Below, piece by piece: positions 5,993 through 63,778 of a DNA stretch of 64,000 nucleotides; within the stretch, counting starts at the first letter, position 1, and every line of letters begins with the position of its first letter. The translations under genes and the position numbers were made by a program. The notes beneath the pieces are model-generated. The model searched no databases. It worked only from the letters and a program-made list of their open reading frames with translations, and was not told the DNA's origin. Origin of the DNA: Malacoraja senta (taxonomy: Eukaryota); the NCBI GenBank assembly GCA_038087875.1, contig CM075988.1, positions 16,370,001 to 16,434,000 on the forward strand, in the 5' to 3' direction.

Positions 5993-7175
5993 AAGATAGA
6001 CACAAAAGGCTGGAGTAACTCAAGCAGGCATCATCTCTGGAGAGAAGGAATGGGTGACATTTTGTGTCGAGACCCTTCTTCAGACTGGTTAGGGATAAGG
6101 GAAACGAGACATATAGACGGTGATGTGGAGAGAAAAAGAATAATGAATGAAGGATGTGCAAAAAAGTAACAATGACAAAGGAAACATTGTAAGCTGTTCG
6201 TAGGGTGAAAATGAGAAGCTAGTGCGACTTGGGTGGGGGATAGAGAGAGAGAGAGGGAATGCCAGGGTTACCTGAAGTGAGAGAAATCAAAATTCATACG
6301 ACTGGGCTGTAAGCTGCCCAAGCGAAATATGAGATGCTGTTCCTCCAATTTGCGTTTAGCCTCACTCTGATAATGGAGGAGACTGAGGGCAGGAAGGTCA
6401 GTGTGGGAATGGGAAGGAGAATTAAAGTGCCCAGCAACCGGGAGATCAGGTTGGTTCAGGCAGGCTGAGCGAAGGTGTTCCGCGAAACGATCGCCCAGTC
6501 TGCGTTTGGTCTCGCCGATGTATAAGAGTCCACATCTTGAACAACGTATACAGTAGATGAGGTTGGAGGAGGTGCAAGTGAACCTCTGCCTCACCTGAAA
6601 GGACCTGTCGGGGTCCCTGGACAGAGTGGATGGAGGAGGTGTAGTGACAGGTGTTGCATCTTCTGCGGTTGTAGGGGAAGGTACCTGGGTTTGGATGGGA
6701 AGGGATGAGTTAACCAGGGAGTTGTGGAGGGAACGGTCTCTGCGGAAGGCAGAAAGGGGTGGAGATGGGAAAATGTGGCTAGTGGTGGGATCCCGTTGGA
6801 GGTGGAGGAAATTTCGGAAGATTATGTGTTGTATGCGATGGCTGGTGAAGTGGAAGGTAAGGACTAGGGGGGCTGTCTCTGTTGTGACTAGGGGGAGGGG
6901 GAGCAAGGGTTGCAGGATACCGAGGAGACACGAGTGAGGGCCTCATCAATGATTGGAGAGGGGAACCCCCATTCCCCAGAGAATGAGGACATCTCGGATG
7001 TTCTAGTATGGAACACCTCATCTTGGGTGCAGATATGGTGTAGACGGAGGAATTGGGAGTAGGAGATAGAGACTTTGCAGGAAGCAGGGTGGGAAGAAGT
7101 GTAGTCGAGATAGTCAGTAGTCTTGTGATGGGGACTGTGGGATCAAGAAAGGGGAGGGAGGTGTCGGAGATGGAG
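5993..7175 (-). mobile_element. Penelope-like element fragment (GIY-YIG, frameshifted) with pLTR
   Basis: ORF 6268-6906 (-) with NLIYCIRCSRCGLLYIGETKRRLGDRFAEH; pLTR at about 5995-6090. Confidence 0.88.
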
Positions 7176-7387: not shown

Positions 7388-7690
7388 ACGGTGGCGCAGC
7401 GATAGAGTTGCTGCCTTACAGCGCCAGAGACCCAGCTTTGATCCTGACTACGGGTGCTGTCTGTACGGAGTTTGTACGTTCTCTTCGTGACCTGCGTGGA
7501 TTTTCTCTGAGATCTTCAGTTTCCCACCACATTCCAAAGACGTACAGGTTTGTAGATTAATTGGCTTGGTGTAAATGTAAAATTGTTCCCTTTGTGGGTA
7601 GAGTAGTACTAATATGCGGGGATCGCCAGTTGGCACGAACTCGGTGGGTCGATGGGCCTGTTTCCATGTTGTATCTCTAAACTAAAAAAG
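7388..7690 (+). mobile_element. tRNA-derived V-SINE (HE1-like) with CR1-derived tail
   Basis: A/B-box-like head GGTGGCGCAGCG...GATCC, V-domain GGAGTTTGTACGTTCTC...CCCACATTCCAAAGAC, tail GGGCCTGTTTCC..TATCTCTAAACTAA. Confidence 0.85.
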
Positions 7691-8299
7691 TGCTGGAGGT
7701 CAGGGTCAAATCCGGATTATAGTCATATAGCATGGAAACATGCTCTTCTGCCCAGCTTTGTCTGTGCCAACCAACCTGTGCCCCTTCTGAGTTAGTCCCA
7801 TTTCCCCGTATTTGGCCCATATCCCTCTAAACTACTATCCACGTACATGTCCAAATGTCTTTTAAATGGATCATTGCTATCTGCGACACCAGGTCTACTA
7901 CCTGTACCACTGTGCTACCTCTGGAGTTCTGAGGGGGAAGTTTTTCACGCAGGGGCTGTTGAATATTTGGATCGAGCTGCCAAAGGAAGTAGTGGAGGCA
8001 ATAGTAATTACAGTGTCTAAAGGGACAGGGAATTGGATAACAAATGAGCAGAGGGATAGGGGCCTAATGCAGGCCAATAGTATTACTTTAGGTAGGCATC
8101 ACCATTGGCGTGGATGAGGTGGGCCTCAAGGGCCTGTTTCTGTGGGGTACGCTTCTCAGATTCACTGGTCAGTCGGAGAACTTGGAGGGCATCTCTTGAC
8201 AAGAACATCCTCCAGGAGGGAGAGTCTGCTGATCTGAAAGATTCTCTGATGCACCGTTGCACCACTGCAACTATCTCCAATGTCCCCATGGCATGCATT

Positions 8300-8383
8300 T
8301 GTGCACAGAGACACAAACGCACAATCACACACACAGACAAGGTCACACACACACACACAGACACGGTCACACGCACACAGGCG

Positions 8384-8423
<40 letters not shown>

Positions 8424-8545
8424 GACACAAACACACACAGAGACACGGTCACATGCACACAGACAGGCGCACACACACAGACAGGCTGGTGCACACACAC
8501 CCAGCCAAAGTGACTGTCAGACACAGACAGACAGACAGACACACG
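8300..8545. repeat. Imperfect (CA)n/(CAGA)n microsatellite
   Basis: Direct reading. Confidence 0.95.
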
Positions 8546-9390
8546 CCTTGAACCAAGAGTTAAGTGTTGATAAAAATCCTCCACACAAGGTCACTCCCAC
8601 CTCTTTCCCAACAATATGTTCCTCTTTTCCTTTGATGTTTTCTGCTTCCTCAGTTAGCAAACATTTCTGCCCTCATTTGATGGTCTCATATCCTGGCTGC
8701 CAGCAGTAAACACTAAATTTCATCTAATTTAAGAAGTGCAGTTTCTTAAATTAGATTCCGAAGATTATCTGTGTGTAGCTTTCCTGCCTGTTTAATCATC
8801 TTTGCCAGCATGGTCTGCTTTGTATGCTGGCCTCTTTCAAGTATAATTTGCATTTGTTCATAATCTGTAAAGCAGCAAAATATCTTTAAAGGAAATCACA
8901 AGATAAAATTTGATGAGGAAGGAATGATGAGATATTGGCCTGCCGGAAGTTGACCACAGAGGCGGACTTTAAAGGTTATACTTTAATGCAGGAGGTAGTA
9001 GAGTTAAACATAGAACAGGACAGCACAGAAACAGGCCATTCGGCCCACGTGCCGATCACGATGCTAAATTAAACTAATCTCCTCTGCCCCCACGTGATCC
9101 ATCGGCAAGCATTCCCTGCAGATCCATGCACCTATTGAAAAGCCTCTTCAACACCTCTATTGTTCTGCTGCCACTACCACCCTAGGCAACGTCTTCCAGG
9201 TACCCACCACCCTCTGTGTAAAAATAAAACTTACCCGCATATCTCCTTTCAACTTTCCCCCTGTGATCTTAAAGCTATGGCCTCTAGTCCTTCACAATTC
9301 CACCCTGAGGAAAAAGGTTCAGATTGTCTTCAAATAAAACTGGAGAAAATTGATAGGTGACATCGTGGGCAGTAACTAGAGCACCAGGAG

Positions 9391-10434
9391 TAGCAATGTT
9401 ACAACATTTTGAGATTTTAAAAATAAAGTCTGTAATTTATCCCATCAGATAAAGCATAAAAAGAAGTTGAATTTGACACCTAATTCACTTTCATATCTTC
9501 AGTATTAAAAAAGTTATGGCCATTTTCATACTCGGAAATTAGCATCTTGTTCCCTATTGCTTTTTCATTGACTTAACACAAAAGCTGTGATCGAGGACAG
9601 TCAAAAGCCCATAACTTTCTTAAAAATTAAGAGAACTGAAAGAAATTTTCAGTTATTATAGATTGAAGCATTCTAAAACAAATATGAAACAATCTTACTT
9701 AGATGACATGAAATTAAAGCATATAATTAGTTAGTTACCTAATTGTAGCCAATTACAAAATTCAATTACTATATCTAAACATCTATCAATTTCTTAAGAA
9801 TAGATTAACATTTTTAAATAGCCTAAGTGTCCAAATAACATTCACACAAGAATTCACAATATAACATAATTTTAAAATCTCATTGTCATGGATTTACAGG
9901 CCAAATGGAAGGAATTGAATGTTTAATACCTGTAAATTAATGGCCATTTAAATAATCTTGCGAGTGAGGTTTTCTGGAACGCGATCATTTGGAACGTTGA
10001 TTTGCGGTGAATTTAACCCCGTATCGGCATGAAAAATACTGCCGTTAGTTCGGGGAAAGGAATCACCGTTTCGCATTAAAAAATGTGAATTAAAGGCTTC
10101 TTAAGAAGCACTTTTATACATTAAAATAAACTACTTTCGTTTACCTGTCCCGTGTGTGAAATCCGTCCCCGTTGTCGGCGTTGACGGCTTCAGAAGCTGA
10201 TTTTTAAATGACTCCAGCGCTGACATTGTCGATCGAATAAAAATTAAAAAAACACAAAACGCCCGTCGGAACGATTTTTCAGCAAACGCTTGTACTCCAA
10301 CGAAATATAACCCAGGACAAGGTAGGAGAAACCCACATTTTAACCCCACCCCCCCCCTTAAAGGCGTCAAAATCGCGCACACGGCCAGTGGCAGAATTGC
10401 AGCGCCGCTGAAGGTAAGTATTGTAACATACCTA
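9391..10434. mobile_element. Non-autonomous DNA transposon (hAT-like, tentative) inserted in a V-SINE
   Basis: Imperfect 14-bp TIR TAG(CA/GT)ATGTTACAA; TSD CCAGGAG (7-8 bp); removing it restores SINE sequence GAGCACCAGGAGGAAACCC. Confidence 0.7.
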
Positions 10435-11344
10435 CCAGGAGGAAACCCACGCGGTCACAGGGATAGTGTGAAAACCCCACACAGACAGCACCCGAGGTCA
10501 GGATCGAACCAGGTTCTATGACAGCAGCTCTACCAGGTGTGCCACTGTGCTGCATCCATCAAAATTAGTTGGCAAGCTGACACACACTCTCACTCTCCCT
10601 CTCTCCCTTATCTAACCTACCGAGTGATAAATTTAATTTTTTCTAGTTTTATTTCATTTTTTTTTTCTCCCTATAGAACGATTTAAATAAAATGAAAGCG
10701 GAGACTTAGAGAATTATTAATGCCCCACTTGCTGAAGTTACGAGCAGAGTGGTTAGGCTCCTGACCTGAAGATCAGATCTGATCAGAGATGCTCACCGAC
10801 CTAGACTGCAGGATTAAATGAGATTGCTCCGTACTGAAGGCAACATTTAAGCCGCTTTAGAGAAGAGTAATCTCGCCACAAGTAATTTTTGCAAGTGATT
10901 CGAAATGCCGTAGATTCCAGTGCTTATATTAAAGACGCAAGCACGTGTCATGAAATGGACAATTGAAAGAATTGCAGGTTGGAAACAGAAATGAAATCAG
11001 GAAACGCTGGAAACACGCGGCAGGTAGGGCAGCATCTGTAGAGGGAGAATATTAACGTTTCAGATCAAAGACCCAGCAGCAGATGGATCACAGCAGATGG
11101 GAGAACTTGCGCAATGTTTGAAACATCTCAGGAAAGAGAGTTCTGATGAAAGGTTTTTGACCCAGAAAATCAACCTTCTCTCATTCTACAGATGCTGCTT
11201 TATCAACAAGAAAAGGAATTGTTTTTATTTGTAGGTAGGAGAGAGGAATCACCTCATGATCACCCTCGTTATCACCTCGTCCACAGCCAACACGGAACCA
11301 TTATGGGCTCCATCGTTCCTGAGTCACCGGTGCCGGCTCTCATT

Positions 11345-11660
11345 TAGTTTAGTTTAGAGATACAGCTCGGAAACAGGCCCTTCAGCCCACCGAGTCCAAG
11401 CCGACCGGTGATCCCTGCACACTAACACTATCCTACACACACTAGGAACAATTTACACTTATACCAAGCCAATTAACCTACAAACCTGTACATCTTTGGA
11501 GTGTGGGAGGAAACCGAAGATCTCGGAGAAAACCCACGTGGTCATGGGGAGAATGTACAATATCCATACTGACAGCACCCAGAGTCAGAATCGAACCCGG
11601 GTCTCTGGTGCTGCAAGTGCTGTAAGGCAGCAACTCTACCGCTGTGCCACCGTGCTGCCC
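11345..11660 (-). mobile_element. V-SINE (HE1-like)
   Basis: Reverse complement of the same family, nested in a PLE 3' UTR. Confidence 0.85.
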
Positions 11661-12454
11661 AATTGTTTGGGATCTTTTCATACCTCTAATTTCCCTCTCC
11701 CGTGACTGTCAGTCCTGAAACAAGATTTCAATGATTGATTTGAAAGACATTTGGACAGGTACATGGATAGTGAAGGATTAGAGGGATATGGGTCAAACAT
11801 GGGGAAATGGGACTAACTTAAATGGGGGCATCTTGGTTGGCACAGGCTCTCAACTCGAAATGTCACCTATTCCTTTTTACCAGAGATGCTGCCTGACTCA
11901 CTGAGTTACTCCAGCATTGTGTGTCTATCTCTAATTGTCTTCATCTGTTGGGTGAGGCTGATTTGGGCTTTAGTTAATTGGTTGATGAGGGTTGTATTGA
12001 GAGAAAACGTGTCGGAATTAAAATAATGCTTTAAAAAAAGGAGGGATTGAAGATAATTTTTGCCTTAATGAAATTGTTAGTTATGGTTGTGAGCTCACTG
12101 CCAGAGAGTGAGGGGGAAGCAGTTGCAATGGTAACTTTCAAAAGACATTAGATTAAAAAGTTGATCGTAGGGAATTGGGACTAGTTGGTGAGCCCACTCA
12201 AAGCCCCCTTTGCGGGAACAACGGACAAATGGGCCTGGAAATCCCTGCATAAAGGGGTACACTGTGTTGATTGCAGAGGTGAGTGCAGCCAAGTCATCAC
12301 AGTTTAACAGGACACAGCATTTGGGTTTGCATGAAGATGGTTTACCAGGGGGAGGTCCTGGATTTCAGCTGCCATCCTCAGTCAGAACTCTCCACGAGGT
12401 GGGAACATTATGAGGCAGGGAAATAAAACTGTTTTGGAATATGCAGGGTATCAT

Positions 12455-12912
12455 AGGATCATAAGATCTTGTGATAGGAGCAGAATTAGGCCATTCGGCC
12501 CATCAGGTCTACTCCACCATTCAATCATGGCTGATCTATCTCTCCATCCTAACCCCATTCTCCTGCCTTCTCCCCATAATCTCTGACACCTGTACTAATC
12601 AAGAATCTATCTATCTCTACCTTAAAATTATCCACTGGCTTGGCCTCCACAGCCTTCCATGGCAAAGAACTCCACAGATTCACCACCCTCTGACTAGATA
12701 AATTCATCCTCATCTCCTTCCTAAAAGAACATCCTTTAATTCTGAGGCCATGACCTCTAGACCTAGACTCTCCCACTAGTGGAAACATCCACTCCACATC
12801 CACTCTATCCAAGCCTTTCCCTATTCTGTACGTTTCAATGAGGTCCCCCCTCATTCTTCTAAACTCCAGCGAGTACAGGCCCAGTGCTGTCAAACGCTCA
12901 TCATATGTTATA
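12455..12912 (-). mobile_element. CR1 LINE 3' fragment (related pieces near 3975-4280, 17268-18020, 28530-28850, 51895-52078)
   Basis: YDERLTALGLYSLEFRRMRGDLIETY...SRGHGLRIKG...QRVVNLW. Confidence 0.88.
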
Positions 12913-15900
12913 CCACACAAACGTGGCCATCTCGTGCTTGCTGAGGTTTATGTTGCATTCACTTCTCCTCCAAACCCTCTCCCCTCTCAATGTATCTCCA
13001 TGACCCTCTCATCCTTAATCCCTTTTGTGTTTCTCCAATTTCTCCTTATGTATTGTGCATTTTTGGCTTTGCTTTAAATCCTTCACCGCTACTCATCTCC
13101 ACAACCCCCTCGAGTTAATACTAACATCTAGCCTTTCTTATGATCGGGGCGACCTGTGATGCAAATTAAGTGAATGATTACAGTAGACATTTTTCACCGT
13201 CTAAGGTATCTTTCCAGATGTCCTGTAATCAAAAAGGTTCGAGAGTGTTTAGTTGTTAAATGCACCGGGACTGGATCAATAAAATTCTTGCTTGCTGCAG
13301 CTTTACGGGCATATTAAACGCAACAACTTAACAAATAAATGACATTATCAGATATTCTAGGTAAACCCGACTTTGATAGTGCAAGCATAAGTATGTAGTG
13401 TAACATACAGCGATGTGACCTCAGAATATGTTCCCTTAATTCAAGCCTACTTACCAAAAAACTAACACATCCCAGATGCCTTGGGATCATTCATTGAATA
13501 GAATCTGCTGATGTACTGAGCCTGCATTGTTACTTGGTTTGGCCTCTTTTAAAGAGTCCGGATGGCACAATGGTACAGCGGTAGAGTTGCTGCCTTACAG
13601 CGCCAGAGACCCGCGTTGCATCCTGATCCTGACCATGGGTTTTCTCAGGGTGCTCCGGTTTCCTCCCACACTCCAAAGACGTAAAGTTTGTGGGCTTCCG
13701 TAAAATAATCGCGAATTGTCTCTGGATACTGCTAGTGTACTGCTAGTGTACGGCGTATTCCTTGGTCGGCGTGGACTCGGTGGGCCGAAGGGCCTGTTTC
13801 CGCGCTGTATCTCTATAAAGTCTAAAGTCAACTGACCCCTATGATGACAGTTCAAATCTGGAGAGAGGATCTGCAGATTAGGCCTTGATTTTAGAATTAA
13901 AATTCAAGAGTCATGTGTCATTCAAGACTTTGAGTAAATTTACACATGAAGTTTTTGCATTTAAAACTAGAATGCTTCATTAAACCATGTAAAGTGACGT
14001 ACTATTTATTTAGATACAGTGCACTGTTGCTTTTAAAACGCCATCACTGGGAGATTTTACTCAACCAATCAGTGGATTGAAAGGAGGTTTCTAATCCCAG
14101 ACCATAGTAATTGGTGCAAATCAAAAATCAACCTTCAGGTTGCCTTTTCTTGTCTTAAAGCCCTGATCCAGATGGCCGATTAAAAGCTCAGCTGATCAAA
14201 TGCCGCTGCAATTGAGACTGTCCTTGTTCCATGAGGTACAAGGCAGCTCTCACTAAAGGAGAATGAAGCTTTCTGGCTGGGGAAAAAAGGGGAAGCACTT
14301 GCGAAATCCCACCTGAATCCAGCAGTAGGGTTGAAAACGAACCGATTACTGTTGGGTGGATGGTTGAGGTTCCAACTACGGATCTCACGTGAGCTTTGTA
14401 CCGACTGAGTCTTCATGTATCAGACATCTGCCAGCGAGGGAATTGATCTGTTTGTTGTATCCGGCGACGGAGCCGGTAACTCGATGCTTAGCCAGCGGCT
14501 AGGGTTACGCCGCGGTAGAGCAGTGAGACAGAGAGATGCCGGTGTTAGTCATACCTGTTTGGGAGATGGCTGTCGTGACCCCTGTGCCCCTGGTGTTGTT
14601 ATCTAATCCAAGGACAAAAGAGGGGCGGTGGAGAAAACATTTCAGCCTATCTGGTCTTTAGTTATCTCAGCCTCAAAACCCTCATTGACATTGCTTGATC
14701 CTACATGGTAGGGTTTCAGGACATCGAATGGAAAGATCTCAACGATAATCTTCAGCTGTTAGATACACCGTACACCAGACGTGCAAGAGCTTGAGGGATT
14801 CACATTATATTGATTAGTACGGGTGTCAGAGGCAGGAGAATGGGGTTAGGAGGGAGAGATAGATCAGCCGTGATTGAATGGCAGAGTGGACTTGATGGGC
14901 CGAATGGCCTAATTCTACTCCTATCACTTATGACCTTGTGAACATCTCGTTTGCTCTCTGCTAAAATTGAGACTCTCCATTTTCCCATGATCTGATATTA
15001 TTCTCTGCATCTATTCACCTATTGACACAATATTTATTTTTAGAACAAAGTGTTGGAGTAACTGAGCAGATCAGGCAACATCTCTGGAGGACATGGCTTG
15101 GCAAAGTTTTGAGTCGGGTCGAGTCTGAAGGGGAGTCCCAACCAAAACGTCACCTATCCATGTACTCCAGAGATGCTGCCTGACCTGCTGGGTTACTCCA
15201 GCACTTTGTGCTCTATGCAAGCCTCCAGCATCTGCAGTTCCTTATGCCTACAATATTCTGTTGCTCATTGGGAAAGGATTAAACATACTGATAGGGCTTT
15301 GGACATTCCCTTGTGACGTTGGGACAGTGGGATGTGGAGGTGCCAAGCGTTTGGGATGGGGATATGTGTGGGGATTTGGGTGAGTGTTTGTCAGTATTTG
15401 TCAATGCTCCTTGTGAGCTTAACAGTATTGATTGGGACAGTGAATGTGTCATAAATACAGGGAGGTCTGTGATAGAATATCCCTTTGCTACTAGATGAGT
15501 CAATATCAGGGGCAGCACACTGGCTCAGCTGATAGAGCTGCTGCCTCACAGTGCCAGAGACCTGGGTTCGATCCTTACCTTGGGTGCTGCTTGCGTGGAG
15601 TGTGCATGTTGTCTCCACAGCTGTGTGGGTTTCCTCCTGCGTGATCTGGTTTCTTCCACATTCCAAAGGTGTGCAGGCTTGTAGGTTAACTGGCCTCTGC
15701 ACATTGGCCAGTGTTGGGCTAAAGGGCTTGTAACTTTTAATGCTGTATCTTTCAATCAAGCAATGAATCAATCTTTATTGGTAGTGGCTCAATGTGGATT
15801 CTGAAATCTTAAGGTCAAAAGTTTGTAAGTTCCACTATCAGTTGCTGCACATATTTCCTGCAAGTTCCAACTAGCTCTGATCGCATCTCCCAGTCAAGTG

Positions 15901-18577: not shown

Positions 18578-19681
18578 ATTAGCTCCACTACAAACCTACC
18601 GACTCCCATGGCTATCTGGACTATACTTCTTCCCACCCTGCTTCCTGTAAGGACTCCATCCCCCACTCCCAATTCCTCCGTCTACGCCGCATCTGCTCCC
18701 AGGATGAGGCGTTCCACACCAGGGCATCTGAAATGTCCTCATTCTTCAGGGAACGGGGGTTCCCCTCCTCCACCATAGATGAGGCTCGCACCAGGGTCTC
18801 TGCCATACCCCGCAACACTGCTCTCTCTCCCCATCCCCCCACTCACAACAAAGGCAGAGTCCCCCTAGTCCTCTCCTTTCACCCCACCAGCCGTCACATA
18901 CAACAAGTGATCCTCCGTCAGTTTCGCCACCTCCAACGTGACCCCACCACTTGCCACATCTTCCCATCTCCCCCCATGTCTGCCTTCCGCAAAGACCGCT
19001 CCCTCCGTAACTCCCTTGTCAATTCTTCCCTTCCCTCCCATACCACCCCCTCCCCTGGTACTTTCCCTTGCAACCGCAAGAGATGCAACACTTGTCCCTT
19101 CACCTCCCCCCTCCACTCCATTCAAGGACCCAAGCAGTCGTTCCAGGTGCGACAGAGGTTCACCTGCATCTCCTCCAACCTCATCTATTGCATTCGCTGC
19201 TCTAGATGCCAGCTGATCTACATCGGTGAGACCAAGCGGAGGCTTGGCGATCGTTTCGCCGAACACCTCCGGTCGGTCCGCAATAACCAACCTGAACTCC
19301 CGGTGGCTCAGCACTTCAACTCCCCCTCCCATTCCGTATCTGACCTCTCTGTCCTGGGTCTCCTCCATGGCCACAGCGAGCAACACCGTAAATTGGAGGA
19401 AATGCACCTCATATTCCGCTTGGGCAGTCTACATCCTGGTGGCCTGAACATTGAATTCTCCCAATTCTGCTAGCCCTGGCTGTCCCCTCCCCTTCATCAG
19501 CCATCTGGTTGTCTCCTCCCCTCCCCCAGCCCTCGGGCTCCTCCTCCGCCTTTTCCTTTTTTCCTTTCCTCTCCCCACCCCCTATCAGTCTGAAGAAGGG
19601 TTTCGGCCCGAAACGTTACCTATTTCCTTCGCTCCATAGATGCTGCTGCACCCGCTGAGTTTCTCCAGCATTTTTGTGTAC
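18578..19681 (+). mobile_element. Young 5'-truncated Penelope-like element (probably Neptune-type): RT thumb/linker, GIY-YIG endonuclease, pseudo-LTR
   Basis: ORF 18733-19473 with Cys linker CNRKRCNTC and NLIYCIRC..YIGETKRRLGDRFAEH; 14-bp TSD CAAGGAAAAATATT (18564, 19682). Confidence 0.9.
19590..19617 (+). ncRNA. Minimal hammerhead ribozyme motif in PLE pseudo-LTR
   Basis: CTGAAGA-A-GGGT TTCG GCCC-GAAA-CGTT; minimal hammerheads in PLE pLTRs are established. Confidence 0.7.
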
Positions 19682-24700: not shown

Positions 24701-24794
24701 GGGGTGGGAGATTGCAACCTTCACATGGTCCGCCCTGTTTCGACGAATGCAATCAACCTGGCGTGCACAATCAAATAAGATCAAATAGAACAAG
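24701..24794 (+). ncRNA. Second, 3'-truncated copy of the HDV-like ribozyme element (ribozyme 24701-24754)
   Basis: 94 bp matching 62458-62551 with 3 substitutions; L3 reads TTCACAT. Confidence 0.75.
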
Positions 24795-26199
24795 GTGACC
24801 ATGGACACTCCGTGCTCATTCTGCAGGAACACTGGGCACATCCGATATTCGGAAAGAGGGGCCAGCAGTCAGCCTGGGTGCAGTCCTCAGCTGCCCACTG
24901 CCATGACCCATAAATGGGCAGCTTGGCCAGGTCCAGCAGCAAATTAGCCAAGAGATCCCTTGACCAAGAGACCCACCCTCCTCCACACCGGATGTTACTT
25001 TTTGGGACCGCTGGGCACCGTTGGGGCTTGAGTGCTTCTTAGATGAGAGTAACAATATTTTGCTTTGAAATTTATATATCTGTTCTTTCTAACGCTTCCT
25101 TCTAATAATGTTTGGTTGTCATTTTGTACCCGTGCATAAACCTATTTTTGTCGTGCCTTGTACTGATGCAGTAAGAATTCCCCACTTTAATGCTCTAACC
25201 CCTTTGAAGTAAGAGCATACACTCCATTAGCCTTCCCTGTCACCAGCTGCTCTTGTATGCTAGGTTTTTCTTTGTTTCATGCACCAGGGCTCCCCAAGCC
25301 TTGTGCACGGCAGCAGTCTGTGTCCTTACTCCATTTGAAAAATTGTTCCTCCTTCCAATATGAGCAAATTCACATTTTCCCCACATTGTAGTGCATTTGC
25401 CAATGTTTCGCCCACGCACTTAATCTCTCAATATCTTTCAGTCAACTGCTTGCATTTTCCTAATAACTTGCCTTCTCGTTATTTTTGTGTCATCTGCAAA
25501 TTTGGCCACTGTACATCTGCTTCCATCGTCCAAGTCATTAATATATGGCTTGTTTTCATTGCATTCCATTGTCGCTTTGAGGAAACTTGCTGTGTAAATC
25601 AATTAGGAAACGTTACAGCAGCAGCATTTAATCTTTTAACTTGTTGAGGAATGTGATACTGAGCCCAGTGTCTTCAAACCACAGGGTGCTGAGTCAGCGA
25701 TTGAGCATTCTTGCCCACTACACCATTGGCAAACAGCAGGATTGAGGCAGATGTTTGCAACTGGAGGATGTTTTGGGTATGGGAGAACTAAATCAAGCTC
25801 AAGTAGCCATCGCATTGGAAAATGGTCGTCAGGCATTGCTTTACTCTGAAGATAGACACAAAATGCTGGAGTAACTCAGCGGGAGAGGCAGCATCTCTGG
25901 AGAGACTGAAAGGGTGACGTTTTGGGTCGAGACCCTTCTTCAGACTGATGTCAGGGCAGGGGGAGATACATAGATAAGGAAGTGTAAGGTGTGAAAATAG
26001 GGCAAAGGGAATGGAGTCAAAGGAAAATGTAGAATAGATCATTGTTACCTTGGAGAAGCTAACAACAATGCAAACAGAGATAAATTGTAATCAAATAATT
26101 GCTTCACACTGATTTATTGATAATTCCAGTTCTTTGGGCAAGTTCTGAGAATCTGAGTTTGGTAATGAGGTTGCTTGATTAATCTTCTTTTTACTCCAG

Positions 26200-55243: not shown

Positions 55244-55699
55244 ATGTCGGGGAGAGGTAAAAGCAGTGGCGGGAAAGCCCGCGCTAAAGCCAAGACGAGG
55301 TCTTCCCGGGCCGGGTTGCAGTTCCCAGTCGGCCGAGTGCACCGTCTGCTGCGCAAGGGGAACTACGCCGACCGGGTGGGGGCCGGGGCGCCGGTTTACC
55401 TGGCGGCTGTGCTCGAGTACCTGACGGCCGAGATCCTGGAGTTGGCGGGCAACGCGGCCCGCGACAACAAGAAGTCGCGCATCATCCCTCGCCACCTCCA
55501 GCTGGCCATCCGCAACGACGAGGAGCTCAACAAGCTGCTGGGCGGCGTCACCATCGCCCAGGGCGGCGTCCTGCCCAACATCCAGGCCGTCTTGTTGCCT
55601 AAGAAGTCGGGCTCGGGGCCGGCGACCGGAAGCGGCGGCGGCGGCAGCGGCGGCAAGTCCGGCGCCAAGAAGAGCTCGCAGCAGTCGCAAGACTTCTAG
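55244..55699 (+). CDS. H2AX: Histone H2A.X (151 aa, intronless), C-terminus SSQQSQDF
   Basis: Canonical H2A core (SGRGK...[10 protein letters not shown]...[13 protein letters not shown]) plus C-terminal SQ(D/E)-aromatic motif; ATG downstream of TATA; human H2AX is also linked to C2CD2L. Confidence 0.95.
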
Positions 55700-60876: not shown

Positions 60877-62457
60877 TAACAGAACTCAGACTTCATGAAC
60901 TTCCTGACCTGATTATTCGTAAGGAGGCTGAGACAGTTTTGGTGAGGGGGATGAAGTGTAGAATTTGGGTCCAGACATTTGAGAACGAAGGACACCTGTG
61001 AACATTGGACAAAGAGGGGAAATAGGAATTTCACATAAGTCAAATCACTGGAGGAACTCCAGCGGGTCGAGCAGCATCTGTAGAAGGAAGGACTACTCAA
61101 CATTTCAGGTCGAGGCCCTTTCCCTCCGCATCTCCAATTGAGTTCATCCATCAAATTTTTTTTGCACCAGATTGCAGTCGTGTGTCTCCTTATATATTAA
61201 TATTTGTAGCTTTCTGCATTTTCATCTGTCAATGGGACGATTAAACAATCTGCCACAGTGCAGATTGCAACAGTGGCTCCAGGAAATCATCTTTGCAGAG
61301 AGGGATGGCCACAAGGGAAATTGCAGTGGAGGATGGGCTGAAGGAATGGGAAATTTAAATACATTGGGGTTTCCAAGATATGCTTCCATACACAAAATGC
61401 ACATTTATGCTAATTTAGTCCTATTTATACATACTTTAAATCCTGATTGAAGGAGATTTGTAAGAAACTTGAATATTTTTTTTAATCATTTTTGAATATA
61501 TTAAATCTCAACCAGCTTTGGATTCATTTTGAGGCCAAACTTCCCTGAGAAGCTATTCCACCACCACATAGTGAAAAATCAAAATGTAAAAATCTATAGG
61601 CAGTGAATAAGGAAAGTTTCCCCACGTATATTAGGGAGTGTGTTGAACTTCACCCACTGTAAAGTTGTATTGCAACATAATATTTATGGGTAATTAAGTG
61701 TTCATTCTGTTAAGTATTCAAAGAGATTGCAATTTAACTTTTCAGTTCAAGTTCTTTAAGGCTTGGTTGGGGGAAGGATGGGAGAGAATAATTTAGCAGT
61801 TTAGGGAAACCTGTTCATAAGTGGTTCTTTCACATTTAAATACTGAATATGAGCAAGTGATTCAACCCACACACTCAATATTCATTTATGCAATTTTGTG
61901 GGAGGATTGGTCTCTAATAGTGAGGAGAAGGAAATGATTTCCTTCCTTGGCCACAAATAGTGAGAGGTGGAAGTCTGCCAATCACAGTTATGTCTACTGC
62001 TATCCAAGCTGAGATCAAATTTAGAATTGAACAGAAATCAATGTGCAAGAGGCTGAGCCTTAACCAATTGACTTTTATTTTTCAAAATACAGGTATCACT
62101 GCCAAGCAATCTACTTTGCCAAATAGGATCTAACCATTAATCACACACTGTTTCTGCAACTCATATCTGGTTCTTAACCTGAATATTCTGGAGCATAATT
62201 CACTAATTATTACCAAATGCCCTATTTTTTTCTTTCAGCTGCTTTTTATTGTTAGGTTACCTTCCTCTCACCGGAAATCCATTATCAAAGCTTCACTATT
62301 ATGAACATGTCTTATTAAGTTGCTGTTTAACCTTCTCTGCTGTAAGGAGAATGACCATGACTTCTCTATATACGATCAAAGCTTTCATTCCTGATTCTAT
62401 TCCAGCAGATATTTTCCTGGTGTTTTTGCTCTTTTACAATACTACTTAAGTAACAGT

Positions 62458-62511
62458 GGGGTGGAAGATTGCAACCTTCACGTGGTCCGCCCTGTTTTGA
62501 CGAATGCAATC
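62458..62511 (+). ncRNA. Minimal HDV/CPEB3-like self-cleaving ribozyme motif (54 nt)
   Basis: P1 GGGGTGG/CCGCCCT (G1-U wobble), P2 GATTGCA/TGCAATC, P3 ACC/GGT, L3 TTCACGT, GT after P1, vestigial P4, J4/2 CGAA with putative catalytic C at 62501. Confidence 0.82.
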
Positions 62512-62593
62512 AACCTGGCGTGCACAATCAAATAAGATCAAATAGAACAAGTTGTCCTACAACTTTTAGGCTGTGCACGCCATACGCAAGAAG
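62458..62593 (+). mobile_element. Short non-autonomous non-LTR element (ribozyme head, 3' stem, AAG tail); Vingi/ingi- or RTE-type partner suspected
   Basis: TSD AAGTAACAGT(G) at 62448 and 62594; 3' end GCCATACGC(AAG)n; second copy at 24701. Confidence 0.75.
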
Positions 62594-63170
62594 AAGTAAC
62601 AGTGATCCACATGGCCAGTGATGTTTTAAATTACTGCACCTCTGTTCTTCATGTCCTCTATCTTCCTTGGCAGAGTCTTATCACAGGTCTGTCTCAGTGT
62701 AATTATCACATTTTCAGCTTTGGCATATATTTACAAAGTAGTTAAAACATAACAGGCATTTGTGTCCAACATGTGTGTGTAAGTGAACGCCTCTGCTCTC
62801 TTCAACTGAACACCATCTACCTCTTTTCCTTCAGGTGCTTATCTGGTTTCCCTTTAAATGCTAATAATCTCACCTATTTCTGGTTCCACGTGTTTACCGC
62901 TTTTATGGATGGCTTAGTAACTAGCCCACATTTATAGTTGCTGCTTCTGGTCCTGCCTGCAAATCTAATTTTCTATACCTACTCCATCAAAGCATTCTAT
63001 TTCAAATTACCCTAACAGGCCTTTCATCAGGAAGAACTGTCCACGTCCATTAATCTTTCCTGATAACTACTCAGTTCTGGTGCCTATCATCACCCTTCTC
63101 TCCCTGCCTGACTCATTTACCAATCATTATAAGTTCATAGGTGAAAGGAGCAGAATTAGGCCATTCAGCC

Positions 63171-63383
63171 TGTAGACAGACTCCAGACACGCTATGTGAT
63201 CCAAAATCATCTTTAATCAACACTTGAACTTTAACACCATGAAGGATGGTTAGATGTCAGAACATGCCAACTGCTGCTCAAACTGAGTAGTGCCAGAAGC
63301 AAGTGTTAATATAAACGTTATAGTGAGGTGGGGTTAGTGATGCTAACTATATGTGATTGGTTAACATGCATAATCAATCTACA
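63171..63383 (-). mobile_element. Solo LTR inserted in a CR1 3' end
   Basis: TGTAGA...TCTACA termini, 5-bp TSD CAGCC; CCAAT, TATA-like and ATTAAA in order on the minus strand. Confidence 0.7.
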
Positions 63384-63778
63384 CAGCCCATCAAGTCTAC
63401 GGCGCCATTCAATCGTGGCTTATCTGCCTTTCCCTTCCAACCCCATTCTCCTGCCTCGTGCGCCTAACCCCTGACACCCTTGCTAATCAAGAAGCCCCTC
63501 CTTACCTGGATCTGCCTATCTTTTGCCAGTTCTTGCCCCATCCATACCTTCACATAGTGCAAATGAAGTTTAGACTGTGACTTACAGGAAACCCACATCT
63601 GATGGTGTTCCTCCTTATCTGCTAGCTCAAGTCCTGGTGGATGATAGAGGCTGACTGTTTAGGAGATGTGGGAGACAACTTACCAAGGTGCTGCAGTGTA
63701 TTTTATAGATTATATGTACTGCAGCTACAGTGTTGGGTGTGGATAATTAAGAAGATTGCTGGAATGCTAATGAAGCAG

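What the first reader, a model, noticed from the sequence alone, without database searches (positions are those of the whole stretch)
62448..62604. A ~136-bp retroelement that is essentially a minimal HDV/CPEB3-like ribozyme plus a 3' recognition stem
Seen: between 10-11-bp TSDs (AAGTAACAGT[G]) the element starts at GGGGTGG and folds by eye into the HDV double pseudoknot. P1 is 62458-64/62487-93 with a G1-U wobble, P2 is GATTGCA/TGCAATC, P3 is ACC/GGT, L3 is UUCACGU, then GU, a P4 shrunk to 5 nt, and J4/2 CGAA. It continues with an 11-bp stem (62516-26/62572-82) enclosing a 7-bp hairpin (62549-65) and ends in an (AAG)n tail. Established: L3 UUCACGU and the GU after P1 match the mammalian CPEB3 ribozyme as I recall it; R2, RTE and L1Tc/ingi elements use 5' HDV-like ribozymes to cut themselves out of host transcripts. 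Inference: this is a promoterless, self-cleaving short internally deleted element mobilised in trans, possibly by a Vingi/ingi- or RTE-type LINE. The 5' boundary coinciding with G1 is what self-cleavage predicts. I do not know whether this family is already catalogued.
Basis: partly seen in the sequence, partly recalled or inferred. Interest (0 to 1): 0.88.

Follow-up and report, generated by a model that had tools for sequence, protein, structure and literature searches.

The report
Self-cutting ribozyme-headed mini retroelement family
This 136-base insertion is one copy of a young, very abundant mobile element whose front third looks like a stripped-down hepatitis-delta/CPEB3-type self-cutting RNA, and its relatives in the same genome suggest where the mammalian CPEB3 ribozyme may have come from.

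Summary
Window 62458-62593 is a retroposed insertion with a 10-11-bp target duplication. A contig of another sequencing run shows the empty site. It starts at G1 of a 54-nt HDV/CPEB3-type double pseudoknot whose P4 is cut to 5 nt, then has an 11-bp closing stem, an inner hairpin and an (AAG)n tail. The family has thousands of copies here: 5,559 exact hits of a 5' 22-mer. All 30 copies examined start at G1.

The head alone scores below Rfam's cut-off (15.6 bits). However, the genome also holds a 3.1-kb endonuclease/reverse-transcriptase LINE and a second short family. Their 5' heads pass the Rfam CPEB3 cut-off (44-64 bits) and share the invariant core with this head, while P1, P2 and P3 differ by compensating changes: 16 of 25 pairs, 96.6% of cells paired.

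The LINE starts at G1, ends in (AAG)n and has about 11-bp duplications. A 9-bp 5'-3' pairing sits where the short elements have their closing stem.

Best reading: a promoterless element, read through by host transcription, that cuts itself out and is copied in trans by this RTE-like LINE. Cleavage is untested. It is a new variant of a known kind.

The parts
62448..62457 (+). Left target-site duplication AAGTAACAGT. The next base, G62458, also matches the right copy, so the boundary is ambiguous by 1 nt.
   Evidence: The empty-site contig in X21 joins 62447 to 62594 with 11 shared letters.
62458..62511 (+). 54-nt minimal HDV/CPEB3-type ribozyme fold, with the presumed cleavage site 5' of G62458. 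P1 is 62458-64/62487-93, J1/2 is 62465-66, P2 is 62467-73/62505-11, P3 is 62474-76/62484-86 and L3 is 62477-83.
62494..62495 (+). GU after P1. By analogy with CPEB3 it would form P1.1 with L3: G37-C22 plus a U38.U21 mismatch.
   Evidence: Identical to the Rfam CPEB3 consensus. The P1.1 make-up is described in PMC4836649. The pairing itself is inferred.
62496..62500 (+). P4 reduced to 5 nt (TTTGA here). About 95% of read depth in other runs has C at 62498.
   Evidence: The Rfam alignment places a single U-A pair and 3 loop bases here.
62501..62504 (+). J4/2 CGAA, with the presumed catalytic cytosine at 62501. A subfamily has CTAA, which is the HDV-type J4/2.
   Evidence: (62502 G>T at 13-23% of depth). 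The role of C57 in CPEB3 is from PMC4836649.
62512..62515 (+). 4-nt spacer AACC between the ribozyme and the closing stem.
62516..62526 (+). 5' arm of the 11-bp closing stem (TGGCGTGCACA).
62549..62565 (+). Inner 7-bp hairpin with a 3-nt loop.
62572..62582 (+). 3' arm of the closing stem (TGTGCACGCCA).
62583..62593 (+). 3' spacer TACGC followed by the (AAG)2 tail. Other copies carry 2 to about 10 AAG units.
62594..62603 (+). Right target-site duplication AAGTAACAGT (followed by G62604).
24701..24800 (+). Second copy of the same family in the window. It is 95% identical over element positions 1-100, begins at GGGGTGG and lacks the 3' end.

Best explanation
The insertion belongs to a high-copy, recently active non-autonomous non-LTR retroelement, called SINE-A here. 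It has no promoter of its own.

A copy lying in the sense direction within any host transcript is transcribed by read-through. Its first 54 nt fold into an HDV/CPEB3-type double pseudoknot lacking P4 and cleave the RNA just 5' of G1. The whole ribozyme therefore stays on the released RNA, and every new copy can repeat the trick.

The rest of the RNA is a closing stem with an inner hairpin, a short A-Y-N-C-G-type spacer and (AAG)n. This part is recognised by the endonuclease/reverse transcriptase of an RTE-like LINE. That LINE also starts with a CPEB3-type ribozyme and ends in (AAG)n. The LINE enzyme nicks the target and copies the RNA by target-primed reverse transcription, giving TSDs of about 11 bp.

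Shown: the anatomy, the copy number, the fixed 5' end, the TSDs, the empty site, fold conservation with compensatory changes across families, and the presence and features of the LINE. Inferred: catalysis, read-through transcription, and which LINE is the driver. I put about 0.6 on the LINE family found here or a close relative.
For: 1. Fixed 5' end. Of the 30 fetched copies, 28 start at G1 of the fold and 2 carry one substitution, all with unrelated upstream DNA. Loose ends at 62457/8 in four other runs have random consensus, with agreement 0.33-0.36. The 5' 22-mer occurs 5,559 times against 3,142 for a 3' 22-mer, so 5' ends are not under-represented. The LINE, in contrast, has 9 hits of a 5' word against 154 of a 3' word.

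2. Fold. When only 67 nt are scanned, the only 3 hits among 4,227 Rfam families are CPEB3, HDV-F-prausnitzii and HDV. L3, CCCUGU and CGAAU are identical to the CPEB3 consensus.

3. Relatives in the same genome pass the CPEB3 cut-off of 35 bits: LINE 61.3, FAM4 59.7, SINE-B 43.7. Of 59 scored hits, 39 are over the cut-off.

4. On the alignment of 24 heads from 5 families, 96.6% of cells pair and 16 of 25 pairs change on both sides. None of 500 shuffles reaches this, and slid controls give 37-49% paired.

5. A second family, SINE-B, has 1,483 exact hits of its junction word. It has the same P4-less junction but different P1, P2 and P3 letters.

6. The family variants at 10% or more of depth inside the head are all structure-compatible. 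62489 G>A turns U.G into U-A. 62498 and 62499 lie in the P4 stand-in. 62502 G>T gives CUAA, as in HDV (the HDV consensus is).

7. P4-less HDV-like ribozymes exist: 'minimal' HDV-like ribozymes are described as lacking the P4 domain (intro), and the P4-less theta subgroup self-cleaves in vitro (abstract) (PMC10879173, passages).

8. The LINE is 3.14 kb, its copies are 96.8-98.2% alike, and it carries endonuclease and RVT_1 domains. It starts at G1, ends in (AAG)n and has TSDs of about 11-12 bp.

9. Shared design. The LINE has a 9-bp 5'-3' complement that begins 5 nt after its ribozyme and ends 7 nt before its tail; 1-2 of 2,000 shuffles reach this. It sits where SINE-A and SINE-B have their closing stems, which have z = -3.9 and -4.9.

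10. No tRNA-like gene was found. The best A- and B-box matches have 3-4 mismatches, and a TTTT run lies inside the element.
Against: No cleavage assay and no RNA data exist. No listed run is on record as RNA, and contigs cannot show RNA ends.

The head alone scores 15.6 bits against a cut-off of 35. It gave no hit when 2 kb were scanned. Sub-threshold CPEB3 hits also 'ring' in 7 of 14 control prokaryote genomes.

The covariation rests on only five families, and I drew the structure from these same sequences, which favours it (caveat stated).

Sites varying at 10% or more are not rarer in the head (4 in 54 nt) than in the body (5 in 82 nt).

No LINE shares this element's exact head or tail. The LINE's last 111 nt show no local structure (z = +0.9) and no BLAST similarity to the element.

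I could not find any report of a tested P4-less HDV-like ribozyme in a eukaryote.
Confidence: 0.78

Rival explanations
1. The head is a ribozyme-derived fold that no longer cuts. It is kept because the LINE protein binds it, as the R2 protein binds its own 5' ribozyme pseudoknot, or because it protects the 5' end. The 5' end would then be set by something else, for example a few master copies that sit behind external promoters.
For: Loss of P4 and the low Rfam score. R2 protein binding to the ribozyme pseudoknot is described in the review PMC6765202 (passage). Catalysis is untested.
Against: Several co-existing subfamilies imply many source loci, which favours a 5'-end mechanism carried by the element itself. 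These subfamilies differ at position 8 (A/G), position 41 (T/C), position 45 (G/T/A) and 62516 (T/C). The catalytic C, L3, G1.U36 and the GU are all kept. P4-less relatives are described, and the P4-less theta subgroup self-cleaves in vitro. Two P4-less families keep the fold through compensatory changes.
Confidence: 0.12
2. It is an ordinary Pol III-transcribed SINE whose internal promoter was not recognised, and the ribozyme-like fold is incidental.
For: A precise 5' end and high copy number are also typical of Pol III SINEs.
Against: ARAGORN finds no tRNA-like gene. Rfam finds no small-RNA family at its gathering score anywhere in the window. The best A- and B-box matches have 3-4 mismatches to consensus motifs that I recalled, and a TTTT run at element position 107 would stop Pol III before the tail. 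The same core heads a protein-coding LINE.
Confidence: 0.04
3. The ribozyme reading is right, but the driver is a different LINE that was not sampled here or has been lost from this assembly, not the LINE family found.
For: No sequence similarity between SINE-A and the LINE apart from the ribozyme core, the tail unit and a short pre-tail motif. The stems differ in sequence. Only the best 59 of a rough 102,231 first-look candidates were scored, so other ribozyme-headed LINEs may exist.
Against: Both have the (AAG)n tail, similar TSD lengths, a T-rich -1 base and a stem-spacer-tail design, and both are young.
Confidence: 0.3

Closest known systems
HDV-like ribozyme-terminated non-LTR retrotransposons (R2, Baggins, RTE). 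Source: review PMC6765202, passages read. The primary paper, Ruminski et al. 2011, is not held and is recalled only.
   Same: The ribozyme sits at the very 5' end. The elements are promoterless, are co-transcribed with host RNA and are freed by self-cleavage. RTE-type elements have microsatellite tails.
   Different: Here the element is non-coding, 136 nt long and present in thousands of copies. Its ribozyme lacks P4.
Non-autonomous partners that keep the 5' ribozyme: R2 SIDEs (PMC3414825, abstract) and NARTc/RIME of the L1Tc/ingi clade (PMC3383444 and PMC3185411, abstracts).
   Same: A 5' HDV-like ribozyme plus a 3' end used by the LINE's reverse transcriptase, with mobilisation in trans.
   Different: Those are recognisable internal deletions of their LINE and are site-specific (R2) or trypanosomatid. 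SINE-A shares only architecture and the invariant core with the LINE found, inserts genome-wide in what appears to be a fish, and is far smaller.
Mammalian CPEB3 ribozyme (Rfam RF00622).
   Same: Identical L3 UUCACGU, G1.U36, CCCUGU and CGAAU. The sister heads in this genome score 44-64 bits. One old copy (L087) is about 80% identical to the consensus over 67 nt by my count from the alignment, including P2 and P4 letters.
   Different: CPEB3 is a single-copy intronic ribozyme with a full P4, reported only from mammals (PMC8233481, passage). SINE-A itself scores only 15.6 bits, has other helix letters and has no P4.
Minimal P4-less HDV-like ribozymes (drz-Mtgn-1, theta ribozymes of gut phages; PMC10879173, passages).
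   Same: A double pseudoknot without the P4 domain, about 50-60 nt long.
   Different: Those come from metagenomes and phages and act in tRNA processing or have unknown roles. This one heads a eukaryotic retroelement and has a CPEB3-type core.
Ribozyme-bearing short retroelements of schistosomes (hammerhead SINE-like repeats; twister variants in non-LTR elements, PMC8501958, abstract).
   Same: A small self-cleaving RNA is used to process a short or promoterless retroelement transcript.
   Different: A different ribozyme class and a different phylum.

Membership tests
HDV-like (delta-type) self-cleaving ribozymes | P1 of 6-7 bp that starts with G1 paired to U at the cleavage site | tested here: met
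   GGGGTGG/CCGCCCT with G1.U36. In the family alignment this pair is G.U in 19 of 19 rows that have letters there.
HDV-like (delta-type) self-cleaving ribozymes | P2 forming the outer pseudoknot with sequence 3' of J4/2 | tested here: met
   GATTGCA/TGCAATC, 7 bp. Six of 7 P2 pairs show changes on both sides across families.
HDV-like (delta-type) self-cleaving ribozymes | 3-bp P3 closing a 7-nt L3 with U20 and G25, plus P1.1 to the bases after P1 | tested here: met
   ACC/GGT and UUCACGU followed by GU, identical to the CPEB3 consensus. The roles of U20.G25 and P1.1 are from PMC4836649. Formation of P1.1 is inferred, not tested.
HDV-like (delta-type) self-cleaving ribozymes | Catalytic cytosine at the start of J4/2 (C-N-A-A) | tested here: met
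   C62501 followed by GAA. This C is invariant in the 24-row alignment.
HDV-like (delta-type) self-cleaving ribozymes | P4 helix | tested here: not met
   Only 5 nt lie between GU and J4/2. P4 is dispensable in the described 'minimal' subgroup (PMC10879173), so this places the head in that subgroup rather than excluding it.
HDV-like (delta-type) self-cleaving ribozymes | Mg2+-dependent self-scission giving 5'-OH and 2',3'-cyclic phosphate ends | not testable with these tools
   No assay was possible. No RNA run is listed and only contigs were available.
Rfam CPEB3_ribozyme (RF00622) | Score at or above the gathering cut-off of 35 bits | tested here: not met
   15.6 bits, E = 0.032 on a 67-nt scan, and no hit on a 2-kb scan. 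Sister heads in this genome do pass at 43.7-64.2 bits.
Non-LTR retroposed element (target-primed reverse transcription) | Variable-length TSDs, a simple-repeat 3' tail and an empty site | tested here: met
   20 of 27 copies with an exact TSD, median 11 bp; empty-site contig.
Classical SINE (Pol III, small-RNA-derived head) | tRNA-, 5S- or 7SL-derived head with internal promoter boxes | tested here: not met
   No tRNA gene and no Rfam small-RNA hit. Box matches are poor and an internal TTTT run is present (the box consensus motifs were recalled).
SIDE (short internally deleted element of a given LINE) | 5' and 3' ends identical or nearly identical to those of a full-length LINE | tested here: not met
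   Exhaustive exact-pattern scans found no LINE with this head or tail. There is no BLAST similarity to the LINE found. Only the architecture and the core motifs are shared.
RTE-clade LINE (applied to the putative driver, not to the finding itself) | About 3.2 kb, a single ORF with an AP-type endonuclease followed by reverse transcriptase, short UTRs and a microsatellite tail (criteria recalled) | tested here: inconclusive
   3.14 kb; a 940-aa open frame with Exo_endo_phos and RVT_1; an (AAG)n tail. Homologues lie on 3.0-3.4-kb contigs. No named RTE reference was compared and no tree was built.

The most novel reading that the evidence does not exclude
The mammalian CPEB3 intron ribozyme is a domesticated 5' head of an ancient vertebrate RTE-type retroelement lineage that is still active in this (apparently fish) genome. 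These LINE and SINE heads would then be the missing non-mammalian outgroup. Within this lineage the ribozyme has been pared down to a 54-nt P4-less form. Together with a 5'-3' closing stem and a microsatellite tail, that form is a complete, promoter-free replication module.
Probability: 0.45. Interest if true: 0.85.

Novelty: new variant of a known kind. Interest (0 to 1): 0.72.

Why it matters
Ribozyme-headed LINEs and a few of their non-autonomous derivatives are already known. This case adds three things.

1. It gives a eukaryotic, genome-scale role to 'minimal' P4-less HDV-like ribozymes, whose origin and function were described as undetermined (PMC10879173). Two families have 5,559 and 1,483 exact word hits, and one insertion is absent from another run's contig, so the element was active recently.

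2. Heads that pass the Rfam CPEB3 cut-off sit on a LINE and on short elements in a genome that does not look mammalian. [quoted passage not shown] This makes the origin of that ribozyme testable.

3. The LINE and both short families share a ribozyme - spacer - closing stem ... stem - spacer - (AAG)n layout. This points to a simple structural rule for what this reverse transcriptase copies, which could be tested.

Tried and rejected
- **Rfam scan of 61500-63500.** It gave only weak snoRNA-like noise and no HDV-type hit. The hit appears only when the search space is small.
- **Whole-window Rfam scan at gathering score.** Nothing found.
- **RNA evidence.** No RNA holder is listed. All 24 runs are kept as contigs, so RNA starts, ends and expression could not be read.
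- **Search for the parent LINE by exact patterns.**
  - 3' domain with a foreign upstream: 20 hits, all indel variants.
  - Head with a foreign downstream: 12 hits. The 10 whose downstream clearly rejoins the element are internal-deletion or duplication variants; one (L045) appears to end early, and one (L054) lies next to an assembly gap.
  - 24-nt tail with a foreign upstream: 100 hits, read from the listing as one-base variants plus about 11 with foreign upstream; the 9 of these fetched (8 of them characterised) are copies split by nested insertions or internal variants.
  - Head followed by something other than the P4-less junction: 36 hits, none bearing a P4 — 33 point mutants of the P4-less junction and 3 with small deletions or rearrangements.
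  - No LINE with these ends was found.
- **BLAST of the element against five LINE copies.** No similarity, apart from a chance SINE-A insertion in L077.
- **Taxon.** A histone H2AX-like ORF gave top named hits from sharks, rays and bony fishes. This is too conserved a protein to name the group. I did not try to identify the organism further.
- **Earlier-findings look-ups.** Nothing on this genome.
- **Papers not held.** Ruminski 2011, Webb & Luptak 2011 and Webb 2009 may already describe CPEB3-like heads or ribozyme-bearing short elements, so my 'not in print' statements are limited to searches.
- **Rejected: a chance look-alike.** This is ruled out and by the fixed 5' end.
- **Rejected: a DNA transposon.** There are no terminal inverted repeats, the TSD length varies and the element has a tail.
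Full report
**What is at the coordinates.** AAGTAACAGT (62448-57) recurs at 62594-62603. Between the two copies the element starts GGGGTGG and can be drawn as follows:
- P1: 62458-64 with 62487-93 (G1.U36, U5.G32)
- J1/2: AA
- P2: GATTGCA 62467-73 with TGCAATC 62505-11
- P3: ACC with GGT
- L3: UUCACGU
- GU after P1
- a 5-nt stand-in for P4: 62496-62500
- J4/2: CGAA, with the C at 62501

ViennaRNA recovers P1 and part of P3, the 11-bp stem 62516-26/62572-82 and the hairpin 62549-65. The whole element is not unusually stable (z = -1.55). The 3' domain alone is, with z = -3.88 and 0 of 200 shuffles folding as well.

**It is a mobile, recently active family.**
- In the window's own 1.94-Gb assembly, all 40 scored matches are 97-100% identical, and 39 of 40 cover bases 1-136.
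- Of the 30 fetched loci, 28 start GGGGTGG and 2 carry one substitution. Upstream DNA is unrelated and (AAG)n tails vary in length.
- A script found an exact direct repeat of 5-13 bp (median 11) abutting G1 in 20 of 27 copies. Three of the 30 were dropped because their tail motif was mutated. Two pairs of loci (L011/L026, L019/L020) have identical flanks and so are not independent. The rest show imperfect repeats by eye.
- Exact-word counts: a 5' 22-mer occurs 5,559 times, a 3' 22-mer 3,142 times and a 27-mer across L3-P1-J4/2 1,958 times. Reversed-pattern controls give 0.
- Ten coded organisms hold the sequence.
- In four runs, 7,623 to 15,316 contigs lie on it. Depth rises at 62454-62462 and falls after 62597. 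Loose ends at 62457/8 and 62596 have random consensus.
- One X21 contig joins 62447 to 62594 with 11 shared letters, which is the empty site. An X24 contig skips 62438-62594.
- This copy therefore inserted recently.

**Is the head an HDV-type ribozyme?** On its own the evidence is suggestive.
- On a 67-nt scan the only three Rfam hits of 4,227 families are CPEB3 (15.6 bits, E = 0.032), HDV-F-prausnitzii and HDV. L3, CCCUGU and CGAAU are identical to the CPEB3 consensus.
- That score is far below the cut-off of 35. A 2-kb scan shows nothing. Sub-threshold CPEB3 hits occur in 7 of 14 control prokaryote genomes.

The decisive context came from scanning the whole genome with RF00622. Of 59 scored hits, 39 pass the cut-off, with scores up to 64 bits. 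They fall into several repeat families:
- **A LINE.** It is about 3.14 kb. Five copies are 96.8-98.2% alike. One copy has a 940-aa open frame and the other four have frames broken into two long pieces. The protein has Exo_endo_phos and RVT_1 domains.
- **SINE-B.** A second short family of about 166 nt whose head also lacks P4 and still scores 43.7 bits. Its junction word occurs 1,483 times.
- **FAM4.** A family with a long P4 and CUAA in J4/2.
- **Older, decayed copies** (L079, L080, L087, L088).

**Covariation.** I aligned 24 heads from these five groups and counted the pseudoknotted structure on the alignment.
- 96.6% of cells pair.
- 16 of 25 pairs change on both sides: 3 of 7 in P1, 6 of 7 in P2, 2 of 3 in P3 and 5 of 8 in P4.
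- None of 500 shuffles reaches this.
- Sliding the partners by 1-3 columns gives 37-49% paired and at most 4 such pairs.
- Invariant columns are G2-G4, one P3 base (C18), six of the seven L3 bases (all but G25), C34-U36, G37-U38, the J4/2 C, the two As and the next U.

Two caveats apply. There are only five lineages, and I drew the structure from these sequences.

SINE-A and SINE-B share the P4-less junction (GUUUYGACGAAU against GUUUYCACCAAU), yet they have entirely different P1, P2 and P3 letters. This is what selection for the minimal fold predicts.

**Variation inside the family.** Variants at 10% or more of depth within the head are all compatible with the fold:
- 62489 G>A (U.G to U-A)
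- 62498 T>C (about 95% of depth, so C is the usual base) and 62499 G>A, both in the P4 stand-in
- 62502 G>A or G>T; the T form gives CUAA, the HDV-type J4/2

Three of these are CpG positions. Variable sites are not rarer in the head than in the body (4 in 54 nt against 5 in 82 nt), so this line of evidence is weak.

**The likely driver and a shared design.** Full-length LINE copies start exactly at G1 of their ribozyme. They end ...ACACGAA(AAG)n and have TSDs of about 11-12 bp. This matches SINE-A's tail unit and TSD length.

The pre-tail spacers resemble each other: ACACGAA in the LINE, ACUCGAU in SINE-B and (A)UACGC in SINE-A.

The LINE's last 111 nt have no local structure (z = +0.93). However, 5 nt after its ribozyme lies CTTTGAAGC, the perfect complement of GCTTCAAAG, which ends 7 nt before the tail. 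Only 1-2 of 2,000 shuffles give a 9-bp match, and one copy extends it to 10 bp. The two short families have their closing stems at the same two places: 11 bp in SINE-A, and a longer stem in SINE-B with z = -4.85.

The common layout is ribozyme - 4-5 nt - stem ... stem - 5-7 nt - (AAG)n. The short elements look like this layout with the coding part left out, although not by simple deletion of the LINE found:
- No LINE with SINE-A's exact head or tail exists in the assembly.
- BLAST finds no similarity.

The LINE shows the usual 5' truncation, with 9 hits of a 5' word against 154 of a 3' word. SINE-A does not.

I call the LINE RTE-like from its size, single endonuclease/reverse-transcriptase frame and microsatellite tail. 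Its relatives, at 50-63% identity, come from amphioxus, sea urchins, fishes, a lizard and insects, mostly on 3.0-3.4-kb contigs. The clade criteria are recalled, and no tree was made.

**Alternatives.**
- Pol III SINE: unlikely. There is no tRNA-like gene, no small-RNA family, poor box matches and an internal TTTT run.
- A non-cutting structural relic: cannot be excluded without an assay. It fits poorly with the many co-existing subfamilies, which imply many source loci, and with retention of every catalytic-core letter.
- A different, unsampled LINE as driver: this remains open.

**Comparison with what is known.**
- The review PMC6765202 (passages) describes HDV-like ribozymes at the 5' ends of R2, Baggins and RTE elements that lack promoters. 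It also describes R2 SIDEs and states that some SINEs use hammerhead or HDV-like ribozymes.
- NARTc keeps the L1Tc ribozyme (abstracts).
- PMC4836649 gives the CPEB3 core features used above.
- Searches returned no paper that links the CPEB3 ribozyme to a retroelement or that describes a P4-less HDV-like head on a eukaryotic short element.
- Webb 2009, Ruminski 2011 and Webb & Luptak 2011 are not held and may bear on both points.

**The CPEB3 link.**
- The LINE head differs from the Rfam CPEB3 consensus at 7 of the first 40 positions.
- The old copy L087 is about 80% identical over 67 nt, including P2 and P4 letters that the fold does not dictate. Both counts are mine, from the alignments.
- This looks like common descent rather than convergence, but I could not test it with a tree.
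A histone H2AX-like ORF in the window has its best named hits in sharks, rays and bony fishes, which is weak evidence for a fish.

**Verdict.** The element is a new variant of a known kind. Two by-products are worth following up: CPEB3-type heads outside mammals, and a shared closing-stem design.

Noticed in passing
L064-L078 (own genome, e.g. C1:217550485-217553632): A young LINE family of about 3.14 kb with endonuclease and reverse-transcriptase domains. Its first 73 nt pass the Rfam 'Mammalian CPEB3 ribozyme' cut-off (57-64 bits among the LINE-family loci L064-L067 and L069). Copies start at G1 and end in (AAG)n. A 9-bp complement links the region just after the ribozyme to the region just before the tail.
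   Followed up: yes
L081-L086 (own genome): A second short ribozyme-headed family (SINE-B, about 166 nt). Its P4-less head scores 43.7 bits for CPEB3, and its junction word has 1,483 exact hits. Copies seem to lack the first G of the 7-bp P1 register, which leaves a 6-bp P1 or a bulged C. How that affects the cut site is unexplained.
   Followed up: partly
L080, L087, L088, L079 (own genome): Older, decayed copies whose heads resemble the mammalian CPEB3 consensus even in P2 and P4 letters (46-51 bits). L080 and L087 share only about 30 nt after the ribozyme.
   Followed up: partly
L068, L072 (own genome): A family (FAM4) with a long P4 and CUAA in J4/2 (59.7 bits for L068; 54.5 bits for L072). 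The two copies are alike for only 109 nt (ribozyme plus 32 nt). A 153-nt block lies directly upstream in one copy and 220 nt further away in the other, so this ribozyme may not be a simple 5' head.
   Followed up: partly
L055 (C2:97868198-97874600) and L056 (C5:35682000-35688500): Two SINE-A copies at different loci carry the same insert of about 310 nt, with terminal inverted repeats, at the same internal site. They are 86.6% alike over about 460 nt. This suggests that a composite element was itself retroposed, so cargo between the head and the tail is tolerated.
   Followed up: partly
L045 (C1:355370567-355373599): A copy that appears to end about 20 nt after the ribozyme and is flanked by a direct repeat of about 10 bp (CAGCATCATA). 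It may be a retroposed head-only RNA or a deletion.
   Followed up: no
window 24701-24800 (+): A second SINE-A copy in the window. It starts at GGGGTGG, is 95% identical over positions 1-100 and lacks the 3' end.
   Followed up: partly
window 55244-55696 (+): An intron-less histone H2AX-like ORF of 151 aa ending in SQDF. Its best named hits are from sharks, rays and bony fishes.
   Followed up: partly
window 6268-6942 (-) and 18583-19473 (+): Two long open frames carrying a YIGETKRRLGDRFAEH-type motif. From memory this resembles the GIY-YIG endonuclease end of Penelope-like elements. Not tested.
   Followed up: no
window 63069-63134 (-): Weak C/D-box snoRNA-like matches (13-18 bits against cut-offs of 36-50). 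Most likely noise.
   Followed up: no
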